Source: a virus
Lineage: Duplodnaviria > Heunggongvirae > Uroviricota > Caudoviricetes
Virus record (IMG/VR): IMGVR_UViG_2617270947_000017
Strand: one strand, 5' to 3'
Length of the DNA: 8,043 bases
Position numbers and translations under genes: made by a program. Positions 1-8,043 of this stretch are shown piece after piece; position 1 is the stretch's first letter; the number at the start of each line of letters is the position of its first letter. The notes beneath the pieces were generated by a model, which had not been told where the DNA came from, did no database searches, and worked only from the letters and a program-made list of their open reading frames with translations.

Positions 1-1254
1 ATGCCAAAACTCACAGATATGCAGATCCGCGCATGGATAAAGGCGGGAAACAGATTTGATGGCAAGGCAGACGGCAACGGCCTTTATATTTGCTACCCCA
101 AAAACTACACAGTCCCGTTCTGGCGATTCCGCTATAAGCTCGCAGGAAAGCAGCGGGCTATGGTTATAGGCTCTTACTCCGAACTGTCACTATCAAAAGC
201 CAGAGAAACAGCAAAAGAGCTGTCAGCCAGAGTTGCTCTTGGCTATGACGTAGCAGCAGAGAAACAGGAACGAAAAGCTGAAGCACTGGCAAAAATGGAG
301 GCTGAGAAAAACGCCATGCGTGTTTCAGATCTGGCCTCCGAATACTTCGAGCGCCAGATACTTCCGAGATGGAAACATCCCGATATCCTTCGCCGGAGAA
401 TTGATAAGGATATTAACCCCTGCATTGGGCATATGAAGGTAGAGGACGTTAAGCCACGCCACATTGACGACATGTTGAAAGGTATCGTTGACCGAGGAGC
501 ACCAACGATAGCAACAGATGTATTACGCTGGACACGCCGTATCTTTGACTATGGGATAAAACGCCACGCTCTGGAGATAAACCCTTGTTCAGCGTTTGAA
601 GTATCTGATGCTGGTGGTAAAGAGGTTTCCCGCGACCGTTGGCTAACTCGCGATGAGCTTATCAGGCTATTCGAGGCTATGCGCACCGCAAAAGGATTCA
701 GCCGCCAAAACGAACTGACATTTAAACTATTGCTGGCACTATGCGTTCGTAAGATGGAGTTATGCGCCGCACGATGGGAAGAGTTTGATTTAGATGGTGC
801 GGTATGGCATTTGCCGGAAGAACGCAGCAAAAACGGAGACCCTATTGATATACCTCTACCTTCCCCAGCCGTTGAATGGTTGAGAGAGCTACACACCTTT
901 TCATGTAATAGCGCATGGGTGCTTCCGGCCAGGAAGATGCAAAACAGAATGATCCCACATATTCAGGAAAGCACTTTACCCGTAGCACTGGCTAAGGTTC
1001 GCGCCGAAATGCCGGATGTGCCTAATTTCACGATTCACGACTTCCGACGCACCGCACGTACTCATTTAGCAGCATTGGGTGTTGATCCTGTCGTGGCGGA
1101 ACGATGCCTCAATCATCGCATTAAGGGCGTAGAGGGGATTTATAACCGTCATCAGTATTTTGATGAGCGTAAAGCAGCACTGGCACAGTGGGCAGATCTG
1201 CTGGTGGCACTGGAAAGCGGAAAAGACTACAACGTAACGCCAATCAGAGCATGA
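1..1254 (+). CDS. Tyrosine site-specific integrase, P4-type phage integrase family (417 aa, appears complete)
   Basis: C-terminal catalytic region has the box II-like HDFRRTARTHL motif and the tyrosine region GIYNRHQYFDERKAALAQWADLL, which I recall as closely resembling the ...YNRSDYLEQRR...WADL tail of E. coli IntA-type P4 integrases. N-terminus (LTDMQIRAWIKAG...GLYICY...WRFRYK) fits the arm-binding domain of this family. ATG is at window position 1, so upstream context (att/tRNA) is not visible. Confidence 0.9.
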   Translation: MPKLTDMQIRAWIKAGNRFDGKADGNGLYICYPKNYTVPFWRFRYKLAGKQRAMVIGSYSELSLSKARETAKELSARVALGYDVAAEKQERKAEALAKMEAEKNAMRVSDLASEYFERQILPRWKHPDILRRRIDKDINPCIGHMKVEDVKPRHIDDMLKGIVDRGAPTIATDVLRWTRRIFDYGIKRHALEINPCSAFEVSDAGGKEVSRDRWLTRDELIRLFEAMRTAKGFSRQNELTFKLLLALCVRKMELCAARWEEFDLDGAVWHLPEERSKNGDPIDIPLPSPAVEWLRELHTFSCNSAWVLPARKMQNRMIPHIQESTLPVALAKVRAEMPDVPNFTIHDFRRTARTHLAALGVDPVVAERCLNHRIKGVEGIYNRHQYFDERKAALAQWADLLVALESGKDYNVTPIRA

Positions 1255-1272
1255 TGAGAGGAAATATTCATA

Positions 1273-2223
1273 ATGAAATTACCTGCGCATAAATATTATT
1301 CTTTGGATAAAGCAGCCAAACTGGCCGGATGTGAAGTATCCGATTTAATACACTATGCAGCAATTGGGGTTTTAGAAATATGTATAAAAATTCCACCTAT
1401 TGAATTGTTTTACCATTACCCAAAAAATGAAGATGCCGAGCCAGAATTACTTAAAGTTGAAACAGATAGTATTTTTCATATAGATACAAAAGCAGCACAT
1501 GAGAATTATCTCCTTGATCTGAGCAATAAGGCAGATAATCTCGAATCATATGGCTTATCATCACCTGATTATAAAAATAGCGATAACTATATGTATTTTA
1601 TGAGGTTTTCATACAAATCAGAACATTTCTCAGTTATAGAGCGATACAATGTTGGGAAGGATGAAAGAGATATCGAAAGATGGAGCGGTCTATTAGCAAT
1701 TCCGCCTGCGTTCATAGATAACGATGAGCGGGAGCTATCAGAATGGGATGATTGGGAGATCTCTGTATGCGAACTGATGCCTCCGAGATGTGACGAGTTT
1801 AGCAAATCGAATAATTATGAAATCGGAGCTTTTTATATTGACGGCTGGTATGAAATAAGCCGAAACAAAATGTATATAACTGACTATGAATACAATCTTC
1901 TTATAAATGGAGGAAAATATATTTATGACAGACCCATGCACAAACCATCCGCAAACAAGTTATCCAATGATATAAATACGCTAAAAGTTAATAAACGTGC
2001 CGAACGGTACGCAGTCAATAGGGAGAAACTATTAAAATCTGCAATTTATATACTTAGTAAGTATCCAAATGAATGCAGGGGAGAAAGGAAAGAAATAAGC
2101 CCTGAGAAGTGGCGTGACTGTCTTGTTCGTCATTTAGACGAAGTTCCACCACTTATGATAACTAATGAAGATGTAATTCTTAAACATCTACGATCTGCGG
2201 CAAATGGCAAAGTGGATAGTTAA
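1273..2223 (+). CDS. Hypothetical protein, AT-rich horizontally acquired cargo ORF (316 aa); possible N-terminal helix-turn-helix; function unknown
   Basis: Single uninterrupted 316-codon ORF; GAGG-containing RBS about 12 nt upstream of the ATG. GC by hand count on sampled 60-nt lines is about 25-33 percent, against about 45-50 percent in the integrase. Residues about 10-35 (YSLDKAAKLAGCEVSDLIHYAAIGVL) look like an HTH; the rest is rich in Tyr/Asp/Glu/Asn/Lys with no catalytic motif I recognise. Followed by a hairpin terminator. Size and position between int and alpA are reminiscent of yfjH in E. coli K-12 CP4-57 (recalled, not verified). Confidence 0.75.
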   Translation: MKLPAHKYYSLDKAAKLAGCEVSDLIHYAAIGVLEICIKIPPIELFYHYPKNEDAEPELLKVETDSIFHIDTKAAHENYLLDLSNKADNLESYGLSSPDYKNSDNYMYFMRFSYKSEHFSVIERYNVGKDERDIERWSGLLAIPPAFIDNDERELSEWDDWEISVCELMPPRCDEFSKSNNYEIGAFYIDGWYEISRNKMYITDYEYNLLINGGKYIYDRPMHKPSANKLSNDINTLKVNKRAERYAVNREKLLKSAIYILSKYPNECRGERKEISPEKWRDCLVRHLDEVPPLMITNEDVILKHLRSAANGKVDS

Positions 2224-2233
2224 CTTACTATAG

Positions 2234-2260
2234 AGGTACTGCAAAATTACAGTACCTTTT
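2234..2260 (+). terminator. Candidate Rho-independent terminator after the cargo ORF
   Basis: Stem AGGTACTG (2234-2241) pairs with CAGTACCT (2250-2257) around an 8-nt loop CAAAATTA, followed by a TTTT run ending at 2260; starts 11 nt after the cargo stop codon. The T tract is short, so strength is moderate. Confidence 0.5.
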
Positions 2261-2278: not shown

Positions 2279-2329
2279 CTAGATTTCTCGTAACGAAGCA
2301 ACAACTATCGCTAAGAGGTTACGGGAATC

Positions 2330-2533
2330 ATGAACATCGACACTATCCCTACAAAAGGCTATATCAGACGCTTTCGCCTGGCTGAATTGCTGGGCGTTAG
2401 TGTATCCACCATCGACCGTAAAGTAAGAAACGGTTCACTACCACGTCCGGTAAAGCTGGGAGAAAAAATAACTGCGTTTGATGCGGTTGAGATTCACAAC
2501 TGGCTGGCAGAACGCCGCGGGAAGGTGGCCTGA
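2330..2533 (+). CDS. alpA: AlpA-family phage transcriptional regulator / excisionase-like HTH protein (67 aa)
   Basis: RFRLAELLGVSVSTIDRKVRNGSLPRPVKLGEKITAFDAVEIHNWL matches the AlpA/HTH_17 pattern (HTH, then G.FP.P.KLG, then a tryptophan-containing tail). Typical size and position downstream of a P4-type integrase. Confidence 0.85.
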   Translation: MNIDTIPTKGYIRRFRLAELLGVSVSTIDRKVRNGSLPRPVKLGEKITAFDAVEIHNWLAERRGKVA

Positions 2534-2964
2534 TGGAAAAGAAAAACCGCCCATTACAGGCGGCTAATTCAGATATTCGCGTATCTGATATTACGCCCCT
2601 TACAAAATCACTTCAAGCACCAAAGCGCACACCGAAAAAGCATCGTGCCCGAGTCTATATGCTGCGTACTGGTATAGAGGGATGGACAGAAAATGACATT
2701 CTTCGCTACTGCCGTCTGTCTTCTGGTCGTAACTATGCAACAGAGTTAGAACGCCAGCTTGGAATCACTCTGGAGCGTATCGACGAAAAGAATCCTGATG
2801 GTATCGGAACACACCTTCGCTACCGTTTCTCCTGCCGTGGTGATGTTCTGAAAGTGATCACTCATGTTAACCATCTTGCGAACATAAATGATCACAACGG
2901 ACTTTCTCAGCAGGAAATTGCCGACATTCTGAAACTCTACCCGGACGCGTTTAACGCCGCCTAA
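2533..2964 (+). CDS. Hypothetical protein (143 aa), translationally coupled to alpA
   Basis: ATG overlaps the alpA TGA stop (ATGA at 2531-2535). Basic N-terminus (PKRTPKKHRAR) suggests nucleic-acid binding. No motif I can assign. Confidence 0.65.
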   Translation: MEKKNRPLQAANSDIRVSDITPLTKSLQAPKRTPKKHRARVYMLRTGIEGWTENDILRYCRLSSGRNYATELERQLGITLERIDEKNPDGIGTHLRYRFSCRGDVLKVITHVNHLANINDHNGLSQQEIADILKLYPDAFNAA

Positions 2965-6318: not shown

Positions 6319-6882
6319 ATGCGAAACATTGATCTTATCCGTCAGGTTATCAGTGCGTCTGAAAACAACTGGCCTCATGTGCTGGGCTGCCTGAACATAA
6401 ATGTCCCTGACTCTCCGCGCCGTCATGCTCCCTGCCCTGCATGTGGGGGTAAAGATCGATTCCGGTTCGATGACAACGGGCGCGGTAGCTTCATCTGTAA
6501 TCAGTGCGGCGCTGGTGATGGGCTGGATTTAATTAAACGCGTAAATAACTGCGACACAACAGAGGCGGCGCTTCTTGCCGCTGATGTTCTGGGTATTGAT
6601 TACCGGACAACGGAAACACCAGAAGCCACCAGCCAGAAACGGGAACAACTGGAAACCGAGCGCCAGCGACGCGAACAGGAGCGCCTGAAAAGGGCAGAGA
6701 AGGACGAACAACAAAGACGGGCTACGTTTTCCCGTCAGTTTGATGACATGCGCAGAAAGGCCGTAAATGGCAAATCTGATTATCTGGTTGCGAAAGGGGT
6801 AGGTGATTTTACATTCCCCGTGTTGCCAGATGGATCTCTGTTGCTGGCGCTGGTGAACCGCCCCGGGAATCCTGGAGACTAA
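6319..6882 (+). pseudogene. Primase N-terminal fragment (P4 alpha-like zinc ribbon plus start of TOPRIM), interrupted by an IS element at about 6853/6854
   Basis: CPACGGKDRFRFDDNGRGSFICNQCG is a CxxC...CxxC primase zinc-ribbon motif; SDYLVAKGV...[15 protein letters not shown] resembles the start of a TOPRIM domain. The reading frame runs into the IS terminal repeat, so the last codons (NRPGNPGD-stop) come from IS sequence. Primases of this type are normally several hundred residues longer. Confidence 0.7.
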
Positions 6883-6907
6883 ACTCCCTGAGAAAGAGGT
6901 AAACAGG

Positions 6908-7234
6908 ATGACTAAAAATACACGTTTTTCCCCCGAGGTCCGTCAACGGGCAGTTCGTATGGTTCTGGAAAGTCAGGGCGAATATGACTCACAATGGGCG
7001 GCAATTTGTTCCATTGCCCCAAAGATTGGCTGTACGCCAGAGACTCTGCGTGTGTGGGTTCGTCAGCATGAGCGGGATACCGGGAGTGGTGATGGTGGAT
7101 TCACCACCGCTGAACGTCAGCGTCTGAAAGAGCTGGAACGTGAAAATCGTGAACTGCGCCGCAGTAACGATATCCTTCGCCAGGCTTCCGCTTATTTTGC
7201 GAAGGCGGAGTTCGACCGCCTCTGGAAAAAATAA
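6908..7234 (+). CDS. IS3-family transposase OrfA (HTH/leucine-zipper subunit), IS629-like (108 aa)
   Basis: [57 protein letters not shown]... matches my recollection of IS629/IS1203 OrfA almost residue for residue; ends [36 protein letters not shown]. Confidence 0.9.
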
Positions 7235-8043
7235 TGCCACTGCTGGATAAGCTGCGTGAGCAGTACGGGGTCGGACCGGTATGCAGTGAACTGCATATTG
7301 CCCCGTCAACGTATTACCACTGTCAGCAACAGCGACATCATCCTGATAAACGCAGTGCCCGTGCGCAGCGCGATGACTGGCTGAAGAGAGAGATACAGCG
7401 CGTATACGATGAAAATCATCAGGTGTACGGTGTGCGTAAAGTCTGGCGCCAGTTGTTACGCGAAGGTATCAGGGTGGCCAGATGTACAGTGGCGCGCCTC
7501 ATGGCGGTTATGGGACTTGCCGGTGTTCTCCGGGGTAAAAAGGTCCGTACTACCGTCAGCCGGAAAGCCGTTTCCGCAGGCGACCGCGTAAACCGTCAGT
7601 TCGTGGCAGAACGACCTGACCAGCTGTGGGTGGCTGATTTTACTTACGTCAGCACATGGCGGGGCTTCGTCTATGTGGCGTTCATCATTGATGTGTTTGC
7701 CGGATACATTGTGGGGTGGCGGGTCTCATCGTCCATGGAGACGACATTCGTGCTGGATGCACTGGAGCAGGCGTTATGGGCCCGTCGACCGTCCGGCACG
7801 GTCCATCACAGTGATAAAGGTTCTCAGTATGTATCGCTGGCCTACACACAGCGGCTTAAGGAAGCCGGATTACTGGCATCAACAGGAAGTACAGGCGACT
7901 CGTATGACAACGCGATGGCGGAGAGCATCAATGGTCTTTACAAAGCTGAGGTAATACACCGTAAGAGCTGGAAAAACCGTGCAGAAGTGGAACTGGCCAC
8001 ACTCACGTGGGTGGACTGGTATAACAATCGACGATTGCTGGAA
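7234..8043 (+). CDS. IS3-family transposase OrfB (DDE/rve catalytic subunit), IS629-like; partial, runs off the window end
   Basis: Frame-1 reading from ATG 7234 (overlapping the orfA TAA) is open to the window end (270 codons). Hand translation gives [21 protein letters not shown]...DQLWVADFTYVSTWRGFVYVAFIIDVFAGYIVGW...HSDKGSQYVSLAYTQRLKEAGLLASTGSTGDSYDNAMAESINGLYKAEVIH..., with the DDE-integrase hallmarks. Not in the ORF track because no stop lies within the window. Confidence 0.9.
   Translation, partial: MPLLDKLREQYGVGPVCSELHIAPSTYYHCQQQRHHPDKRSARAQRDDWLKREIQRVYDENHQVYGVRKVWRQLLREGIRVARCTVARLMAVMGLAGVLRGKKVRTTVSRKAVSAGDRVNRQFVAERPDQLWVADFTYVSTWRGFVYVAFIIDVFAGYIVGWRVSSSMETTFVLDALEQALWARRPSGTVHHSDKGSQYVSLAYTQRLKEAGLLASTGSTGDSYDNAMAESINGLYKAEVIHRKSWKNRAEVELATLTWVDWYNNRRLLE

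What the first reader, a model, noticed from the sequence alone, without database searches (positions are those of the whole stretch)
1273..1400. Cargo protein begins with an excisionase/AlpA-like helix-turn-helix
YSLDKAAKLAGCEVSDLIHYAAIGVL has a helix / short turn (G-C-E-V-S) / helix layout. A DNA-binding N-terminus fused to an unknown C-terminal domain would suit a sensor-effector or a regulator. It may be a distant duplicate of the Xis/AlpA-type fold encoded one gene downstream.
Basis: inference. Interest (0 to 1): 0.4.

Follow-up and report, generated by a model that had tools for sequence, protein, structure and literature searches.

The report
Divergent excisionase-type fold heading satellite cargo protein
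The first ~40 residues of an unannotated 316-residue protein, carried in the variable slot between the integrase and alpA genes of an E. coli phage satellite, do fold like a MerR/excisionase helix-turn-helix, but the helix that would normally read DNA is acidic and greasy, so it probably does not bind DNA in the usual way.

Summary

This module is the best-conserved part of a large unannotated Enterobacterales family (647 clusters at 50% identity). In every locus examined the gene lies directly 3' of a satellite (PICI) integrase, usually about 110 bp before alpA.

The proteins have three parts: an HTH-like N-module, a hypervariable acidic beta-rich centre, and a small basic helical C-module. 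At the E. coli yicC site, N-module plus centre swap as a cassette between near-identical backbones, and unrelated genes can occupy the slot. So this is accessory cargo, not a core regulator.

Across 192 members the would-be recognition helix has net charge -2.3 (AlpA +1.8) and a broad hydrophobic face, and the whole protein averages about -11. The fold claim is supported. Canonical DNA binding is doubtful. A duplication of alpA is unsupported. Function is unknown; a phage-facing sensor or adaptor is my best guess.

The parts
1273..2223 (+). ORF of 316 aa. It is an unannotated three-module protein in the integrase-alpA accessory slot of a PICI-type satellite.
   Evidence: ORF list. RefSeq annotates it as hypothetical protein WP_016231264.1. 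No Pfam, PADLOC or NCBIfam hit. GC is 31-40% against 48-50% in the flanks.
1294..1392 (+). N-terminal MerR/excisionase-class helix-turn-helix module, residues 8-40. Strand 8-10; helix 1 residues 11-18 (1303-1326); turn 19-21 (1327-1335); helix 2 residues 22-30 (1336-1362); strand 37-39.
1408..1917 (+). Hypervariable, acidic central region, residues 46-215. It holds a long helix (72-92) and a confidently modelled beta-rich domain (about 105-212) with family motifs GLW/GLL (about residue 139) and DLxIT (about residue 200).
1918..1992 (+). Low-confidence linker, residues 216-240.
   Evidence: pLDDT below 50 for residues 216-242.
1993..2220 (+). Small basic helical C-terminal module, residues 241-316, with motif ERHAxNRE...YPxEC...ISPEKW. 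It belongs to the conserved island backbone, not to the swapped cassette.
   Evidence: 73% mean identity within the close subfamily. Invariant R250, E251 and C268. Net charge +4 to +5. DNA identity to the alternative allele resumes at window 2017. No PDB sequence relative and no similarity to AlpA.
1..1254 (+). Tyrosine integrase of the satellite. The cargo ORF starts 19 bp after its stop codon.
   Evidence: Pfam Arm-DNA-bind_3, Phage_int_M and Phage_integrase. An integrase lies directly upstream in 36 of 36 loci and in further distant members.
1256..1264 (+). Shine-Dalgarno-like GAGAGGAAA, 8 nt before the ATG at 1273.
   Evidence: Read from the sequence.
2232..2259 (+). Conserved hairpin just after the cargo stop codon (stem 2234-2241 / 2250-2257, then TTTTCATT). 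Probably the 3' end of the int-cargo transcript.
   Evidence: Alignment of 9-11 islands shows compensatory and G-U changes. Helices 1 and 2 are 82-85% paired (82% over all three helices), against 32-46% when partners are slid. The RNA fold z-score is -3.55. The simple terminator scan did not report it.
2330..2533 (+). alpA, the AlpA-family regulator/excisionase-type HTH and known master activator of Gram-negative PICIs.
   Evidence: Pfam Phage_AlpA E 2.2e-8 and HTH_17 E 5.7e-6. Its role is taken from PMC6092414.

Best explanation
Residues 8-40 of the 316-aa protein are a real but highly divergent helix-turn-helix of the MerR/excisionase (Xis, AlpA, HTH_17) structural class.

This module heads a three-part accessory protein: a conserved HTH-like N-module, a hypervariable acidic beta-rich centre, and a small basic helical C-module. 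The gene is probably expressed together with the integrase of an enterobacterial phage-inducible chromosomal island (PICI). It occupies the island's accessory slot between int and alpA.

The N-module plus centre is exchanged as a cassette between islands.

My inferred reading, not shown by any test:
- The variable centre is a specificity determinant facing something fast-evolving, most likely a phage protein.
- The N-module is a conserved docking module. Its 'recognition' helix is used as a hydrophobic/acidic protein interface, within the protein or with a partner, rather than for canonical major-groove DNA reading.
- If the protein touches nucleic acid, the basic C-module is the likelier site.
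For: Fold:
- AF2 gives beta-alpha-turn-alpha-beta with pLDDT about 95. The helices persist when residues 1-62 are modelled alone.
- The full-length model aligns 50 of the 54 residues of Pukovnik Xis at 2.0 A.
- hhalign to the AlpA family is in register, P 1.8e-4, about 7 sd above shuffled templates.

Module status:
- The N-module is the most conserved part across 126 distant members: 42% identity, against 8% for the centre and 20% for the C-module.

Non-canonical surface:
- Helix-2 region charge is -2.26 (range -4 to 0) in 192 members, against +1.76 in AlpA.
- HTH core charge is -0.9, against +5.5 in AlpA.
- Positions 25, 26, 28 and 29 are about 90-100% hydrophobic or small, and D24 is 98% conserved.
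- The whole protein averages -11 and the C-module +3.

Accessory cassette:
- The gene lies directly 3' of int in every locus examined.
- The same yicC-site backbone (int 99% identical, alpA side 93%) carries three divergent alleles or two unrelated genes.
- Break points fall at window 1248 and 2017.
- GC is low.
- The PICI literature places accessory genes between the integrase and the regulator (PMC10085698).
Against: - No Pfam HTH model matches the query at E <= 1. Only 2 of 126 relatives give sub-threshold HTH_17 hits, and I could not locate where in the protein those hits fall.
- The argument against DNA binding rests on sequence composition alone. Acidic residues can contact bases (Glu19 of lambda Xis, from memory).
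- I could not inspect model coordinates or PAE, so burial of helix 2 is inferred, not seen.
- No functional data exist for any member.
- No partner, phage target or phenotype is known.
- PADLOC finds no known defence system.
Confidence: 0.55

Rival explanations
1. Canonical DNA-binding regulator. The N-terminal HTH binds an operator, the variable centre senses a ligand or phage protein, and the protein controls alpA or int. This would make it an Stl-like or MerR-like switch for satellite induction.
For: The fold belongs to a class that is almost always DNA-binding. The gene sits about 110 bp upstream of alpA, and the factor that induces alpA on helper infection is unknown (PMC6092414). R/K at position 13 is 84% conserved. 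A long helix at 72-92 follows the HTH, as in MerR proteins.
Against: The recognition-helix region is acidic in all 192 members and the protein averages -11. Islands with 99% identical int and 93% identical alpA regions carry N-modules only about 23% identical, unrelated proteins, or (at thrW) nothing comparable. So it is not a required regulator, and its target is not in the shared backbone. The 72-92 helix lies in the hypervariable region.
Confidence: 0.2
2. Single-gene anti-phage defence or interference protein. The variable centre senses a phage component and the conserved C-module acts as, or recruits, the effector. The HTH-like N-module is only a scaffold.
For: The gene sits in an accessory slot of a satellite, where satellites are known to carry defence genes (PMC10085698). 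Alleles swap as cassettes and the centre is extremely variable. GC is low. A related PICI gives superinfection immunity from an unmapped determinant (PMC11773190).
Against: No PADLOC or Pfam match for this protein or for the other slot occupants. The 75-aa C-module has no recognisable catalytic motif or structural relative. There is no phenotype data. This rival overlaps the best explanation rather than excluding it.
Confidence: 0.25
3. Not an independent HTH domain. The two helices are part of one globular non-DNA-binding fold, or the similarity is the generic look of any two short helices.
Confidence: 0.12
4. Recent tandem duplicate of the neighbouring alpA gene that became fused to a new C-terminal part.
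For: Same structural class, one gene apart, with hhalign P 1.8e-4.
Against: BLASTP finds nothing even at E <= 100. Identity over the aligned columns is about 23%. GC content differs from alpA. The closest structure is MerR-like. The N-module travels with the swapped cassette while alpA stays with the backbone.
Confidence: 0.03

Closest known systems
Excisionase / AlpA / HTH_17 winged-helix proteins (Pfam PF12728, PF05930), e.g. Pukovnik Xis 4j2n, RdfS 8dgl, P2 Cox 4lhf
   Same: Same beta-alpha-turn-alpha-beta core. The sequence profile aligns in register with the AlpA family (P..Y..L..AA.LLG[CV]...D/T-L...G.L). Both are encoded next to an integrase on a mobile element.
   Different: No Pfam hit. 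The basic recognition helix and wing residues are replaced by acidic and hydrophobic ones. The module is fused to about 270 further residues, whereas Xis and AlpA are proteins of roughly 50-90 aa. It is not needed in all islands.
MerR-family regulators (N-terminal domains such as 3qao, SoxR 2zhh, BmrR 3d6y, TnrA 4r22, BldC 6amk)
   Different: No MerR Pfam match. The long helix is not conserved in the family. The protein is acidic overall. No conserved effector-binding domain. No evidence of a promoter with a long spacer as target.
SaPI Stl / Gram-positive PICI master repressors
   Same: A satellite protein encoded beside int, with an N-terminal HTH and a highly variable remainder. In Stl that variable part recognises different helper-phage proteins.
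   Different: Stl has a different HTH class (Xre/CI-like, from memory). It is divergently transcribed from the operon it represses and is essential for control of the island. This gene is co-oriented with int and alpA, is optional, and has a non-basic HTH.
Accessory/defence hotspots of phage satellites (P4-like hotspot next to int; accessory genes of PICIs)
   Same: Variable slot adjacent to the integrase. Cassette-like replacement between near-identical backbones. Low GC.
   Different: None of the five occupant types seen here matches a known defence system (PADLOC, Pfam). Three of the five belong to this one family.

Membership tests
HTH_17 / Phage_AlpA excisionase-type HTH (Pfam PF12728 / PF05930) | Match to the family HMM above its gathering score | tested here: not met
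   No Pfam family at E <= 1 for the query. Only 2 of 126 relatives give HTH_17 at best E 0.005, below threshold and at an unknown position. The neighbouring AlpA passes.
HTH_17 / Phage_AlpA excisionase-type HTH (Pfam PF12728 / PF05930) | beta-alpha-turn-alpha-beta winged-helix fold of the MerR/Xis class | tested here: met
   [not shown]
HTH_17 / Phage_AlpA excisionase-type HTH (Pfam PF12728 / PF05930) | Detectable sequence-profile homology to bona fide members | tested here: inconclusive
   hhalign against an AlpA alignment gives probability 49% and P 1.8e-4, in register, about 7 sd above shuffled templates. BLASTP finds nothing and PDB profile searches find nothing.
HTH_17 / Phage_AlpA excisionase-type HTH (Pfam PF12728 / PF05930) | Basic recognition helix and wing suited to DNA contact | tested here: not met
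   Helix-2 region net charge is -2.26 (maximum 0) against +1.76 in AlpA. The core is -0.9 against +5.5. AlpA's invariant T27, D29 and R30 align with D, L/I and H.
HTH_17 / Phage_AlpA excisionase-type HTH (Pfam PF12728 / PF05930) | Sequence-specific DNA binding / recombination directionality | not testable with these tools
   Needs EMSA, footprinting or excision assays.
MerR-family transcription regulators | N-terminal wHTH, then a conserved long coiled-coil dimerisation helix, then a C-terminal effector domain | tested here: not met
   The HTH fold matches and a helix at 72-92 exists in the query. But that region is hypervariable and gapped across the family, and no MerR Pfam hit exists.
PICI accessory (cargo) gene | Lies in the slot between integrase and regulator of an int-alpA-primase island, with variable occupancy between related islands | tested here: met
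   Island layout is int, this gene, alpA, AntA-like, ash, primase and PerC, at yicC. There are five occupant types on near-identical backbones. The literature defines this slot (PMC10085698).
Known anti-phage defence systems (PADLOC-DB v2) | Match to a defence-protein HMM | tested here: not met
   No family at E <= 1 for the query or at E <= 0.1 for a third allele and two other slot occupants.
Stl-type satellite master repressor | Essential repressor, divergent from the regulated operon, derepressed by binding a helper-phage protein | tested here: not met
   The gene is co-oriented with alpA and absent or replaced in related islands. Binding of a phage protein cannot be tested here.

The most novel reading that the evidence does not exclude
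The family is a new class of integrase-coupled, cassette-swappable phage sensors of Gram-negative satellites. The hypervariable centre would recognise a helper or competitor phage protein. The conserved N- and C-modules would transmit this either to alpA induction (the still unknown trigger of Gram-negative PICI induction) or to an abortive or defensive response. A repurposed, non-DNA-binding excisionase fold would serve as the interaction module, and the central domain would have no structural relative.
Probability: 0.17. Interest if true: 0.75.

Novelty: new variant of a known kind. Interest (0 to 1): 0.4.

Why it matters
The fold itself is ordinary. What is less ordinary is where it sits and what it heads.

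- **An unannotated family.** It has at least 647 clusters at 50% identity and no Pfam, NCBIfam or PADLOC model. In every one of the 40-odd loci I looked at, the gene follows a satellite integrase.
- **Arms-race behaviour.** The family behaves like an arms-race cassette, with a non-basic version of a classic DNA-binding fold as its most conserved element.
- **If it is a phage sensor.** It could bear on how Gram-negative PICIs recognise helper phages, which the PICI papers I read leave unresolved. Alternatively it could add a defence gene family.
- **If not.** It is still a useful caution that an HTH-like N-terminus does not by itself mean a regulator.

Tried and rejected
- **Family and sequence libraries.** Pfam, NCBIfam, PHROGs and PADLOC on the query gave nothing. 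The one exception was PHROG 13283 (unknown function) at E 0.019 on residues 1-44.
- **Pfam on relatives.** Scans of 59 close and 126 distant relatives gave only noise. Two follow-up scans failed to locate the two weak HTH_17 hits.
- **PDB sequence searches.** Profiles of the full length, the N-module and the C-module, and the single N-terminal sequence, gave nothing or chance hits such as NDUFS7 and a His-tag artefact.
- **Phage genomes.** tblastn found no match.
- **Locus retrieval.** The search for related loci with the distant alignments failed for lack of conserved stretches. The genome-contig scan with the close alignment gave only 4 loci.
- **alpA duplication.** Rejected.
- **Required alpA regulator.** Made unlikely by the optional, swappable occupancy of the slot.
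- **Zn site from C9/C20/H27/C37.** Considered and dropped: the query has Y9, and the positions are only 61-80% conserved.
- **Rfam.** Nothing credible in 1200-2600.

Full report
**1. The observation**

The window encodes, all on the + strand:
- a tyrosine integrase (1-1254);
- a 316-aa ORF (1273-2223);
- an AlpA-family protein (2330-2533);
- a 143-aa protein and an AntA-like protein;
- further downstream, the N-terminal part of a primase cut by an insertion sequence.

The quoted peptide is residues 9-34 of the 316-aa ORF. The range 1273-1400 covers residues 1-42. A GAGAGGAAA ribosome-binding site lies 8 nt upstream of the ATG.

AlphaFold2 with 59 homologues predicts strand 8-10, helix 11-18, a three-residue turn (G19-C20-E21), helix 22-30 and strand 37-39, at pLDDT about 95. 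So the helix / short turn / helix layout is there.

**2. Is it an excisionase/AlpA-type HTH?**

Sequence libraries are silent:
- Pfam, NCBIfam and PADLOC give no hit at E <= 1.
- PDB sequence and profile searches give nothing meaningful.
- BLASTP against the neighbouring AlpA finds no alignment even at E <= 100.

(a) *Profile against profile.* The N-terminal alignment against an alignment of 25 AlpA proteins gives an in-register match covering strand, helix 1, turn and helix 2 (probability 49%, P 1.8e-4). With a 192-sequence N-terminal alignment the score is 22.1. Two hundred column-shuffled AlpA templates give mean 8.7, sd 1.9 and maximum 14.2; the reversed template gives 8.6. The protein's own C-terminal domain against AlpA scores 9.4, probability 0.1%.

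- Pukovnik Xis 4j2n;
- TnrA, BldC, CvkR, P2 Cox, SoxR and RdfS;
- lower down the list, Tn916 Xis and a small terminase.

In the full-length search Pukovnik Xis aligns over 50 of its 54 residues at 2.0 A.

**3. Is it DNA-binding?**

Here the evidence goes the other way.

- *Family consensus.* Across 192 non-identical members the consensus is LPPLEYCxLxRAAxLLGCEvDDLLHWAxIGAIxLC.
- *Recognition-helix equivalents.* In the hhalign register, AlpA's invariant T27, D29 and R30 correspond to D24 (98% D), L/I26 and H27. AlpA's K/R31 and R/K33 correspond to W/L/F and A/S/E.
- *Charge.* The helix-2 region averages -2.26 (range -4 to 0), against +1.76 in AlpA. The whole HTH core averages -0.9, against +5.5.
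- *Hydrophobic face.* Positions 25, 26, 28 and 29 are almost always hydrophobic or small. That is more of the helix circumference than a solvent- or DNA-facing helix would bury. This last step is inference from sequence.
- *Whole protein.* It is acidic: mean -11 in the family and -12 in the query. The centre carries about -13, and only the C-terminal module is basic, at +3 to +5.

This is not proof, and I could not view the model's coordinates. It makes canonical major-groove recognition by this helix unlikely. I put DNA binding by the N-module at roughly 0.3.

**4. What the protein is part of**

*Family size.* A word-index search found 61 homologues, all labelled 'hypothetical' and all from Enterobacterales. 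An exhaustive HMMER search with their alignment found 647 cluster representatives at E <= 1e-3, 166 of them at E <= 1e-10.

*Three-part build*:
- An N-module with 42% mean pairwise identity among 126 distant members.
- A centre with 8% identity, although it is modelled confidently (pLDDT 89-96 for residues 111-210). It has family motifs GLW and DLxIT.
- A disordered linker (216-242).
- A C-terminal helical module of about 75 aa (ERHAxNRE...YPxEC...ISPEKW). It is 73% identical within the close subfamily and 20% in the wide family.

**5. Context**

The island is integrated next to yicC. It carries int, this gene, alpA, AntA-like, ash, a DUF5906 primase, a phage ejection-protein homologue, an Abi protein and PerC. 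That is the int-alpA-pri layout of Gram-negative PICIs (PMC6092414; PMC10111431). It resembles EcCIMP1 in carrying AlpA, PerC and a DNA primase (PMC11773190).

In 36 of 36 loci collected by homology the gene lies 8-331 bp downstream of a co-oriented integrase. In most of them it lies 102-125 bp upstream of alpA. The same holds for very distant members, some overlapping the int stop codon by 4 bp. The loci span Escherichia, Salmonella, Pantoea, Pectobacterium, Xenorhabdus and others, at different integration sites, including islands embedded in prophage late genes.

The gene is nevertheless not a fixed component. E. coli islands at yicC with int 99% identical and the alpA side 93% identical carry one of the following:
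- this allele;
- a 321-aa allele;
- a 281-aa allele, all three from this family;
- an unrelated 216-aa protein;
- an unrelated 208-aa protein.

A related island at tRNA-Thr has none of these. EcCIMP1 carries yet another small gene in the slot.

Against the 321-aa allele, DNA identity stops at window 1248 and resumes at 2017, which is the start of the C-module. So the N-module plus centre moves as a cassette, while the C-module stays with the backbone.

The gene's GC content is 31-40%, against 48-50% around it. [quoted passage not shown] 'Cargo' is therefore a fair label.

**6. Mechanism**

*Shown:*
- the fold class;
- the three-module build;
- linkage to int;
- cassette exchange;
- optional occupancy;
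- the acidic, hydrophobic 'recognition' helix.

*Inferred:*
- The gene is co-expressed with int. The spacer is short, a Shine-Dalgarno site is present, and a conserved hairpin follows the stop codon.
- The hypervariable centre tracks a fast-evolving partner, most plausibly a phage protein.
- The N-module serves as a conserved protein-interaction or intramolecular docking surface.
- The basic C-module is the likelier nucleic-acid or backbone-specific contact.

Whether the output is defence or interference, modulation of satellite induction, or something at establishment (for example anti-restriction, given expression with int and the acidity) cannot be decided here.

A required regulator of alpA is unlikely, because the same backbone works with very different N-modules or without the gene. 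PADLOC recognises none of the slot occupants.

**7. Comparison and novelty**

The module works like, and probably descends from, the MerR/Xis/AlpA winged-helix superfamily. It fails the HMM membership test and the basic-surface criterion.

The overall design, an N-terminal HTH plus a variable sensor next to int on a satellite, recalls SaPI Stl. Orientation, HTH class and dispensability all differ.

I rate it a new variant of a known kind, of moderate interest (0.4).

Noticed in passing
window 2232-2259: A conserved hairpin sits immediately after the cargo stop codon (AGGTACTG-N8-CAGTACCT, then TTTTCATT). Other islands keep the pairing through compensatory and G-U changes, which points to an RNA 3'-end or terminator element closing an int-cargo transcript rather than a DNA operator. 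The simple terminator scan missed it.
   Followed up: partly
window 2287-2325 (just before the alpA ATG at 2330): An inverted repeat CTCGTAAC-N23-GTTACGGG has a 3' arm that abuts the alpA Shine-Dalgarno (AAGAGG, 2313-2318). Other islands show compensatory variants: CCCCTAAC/GTTAGGGG, TCCTCCTGT/ACAGGAGGA and CTGCCGTGTT/AACACGGCAG. This could be a translational control hairpin in the alpA leader, or a co-evolving operator. The region folds with z -3.55, and 82% of cells are paired against 32-46% for slid controls.
   Followed up: partly
window 6856-8043: Identity to the otherwise 99.7% identical island in NZ_OZ040950 ends at 6855, inside the DUF5906/D5 primase gene. An IS3-family transposase ORF starts at 6908; IS629/IS1203-like is my recollection, not tested. 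This copy of the satellite therefore has a truncated primase (187 aa instead of 783) and is probably replication-defective.
   Followed up: partly
[not shown]
   Followed up: partly
L015 1766-2416; L045 1457-2083; L044 1556-2401; L016 1856-2821 (E. coli yicC-site islands): The int-alpA slot of near-identical islands holds at least five occupant types: three divergent alleles of this family, plus unrelated 216-aa and 208-aa proteins. None has a Pfam or PADLOC match. The two unrelated genes overlap the integrase stop codon by 4 bp, as some distant members of this family do.
   Followed up: partly
P0192, P0193, P0199, P0236; L047-L050: Some family members replace the ERHAxNRE C-module with other short helical C-termini ending in motifs such as 'TLxxWLK/R' or 'NIRNWIG'. 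These look like small HTH-type modules. So the C-terminus is itself modular.
   Followed up: no
L006-L008 (Enterobacter cloacae complex): Here the island carrying a family member sits directly after phage terminase, portal and Mu-F-like genes. This matches the published 'helper-embedded PICI' configuration (PMC10111431). A Bro-N protein follows the gene in place of alpA.
   Followed up: no
window 2533-2964: The 143-aa gene after alpA overlaps the alpA stop codon by one base (TGATG, with the ATG at 2533). In some RefSeq records the identical protein is named 'PM1773 family protein'. It has only a weak winged-helix hint (HTH_91, E 0.018).
   Followed up: no
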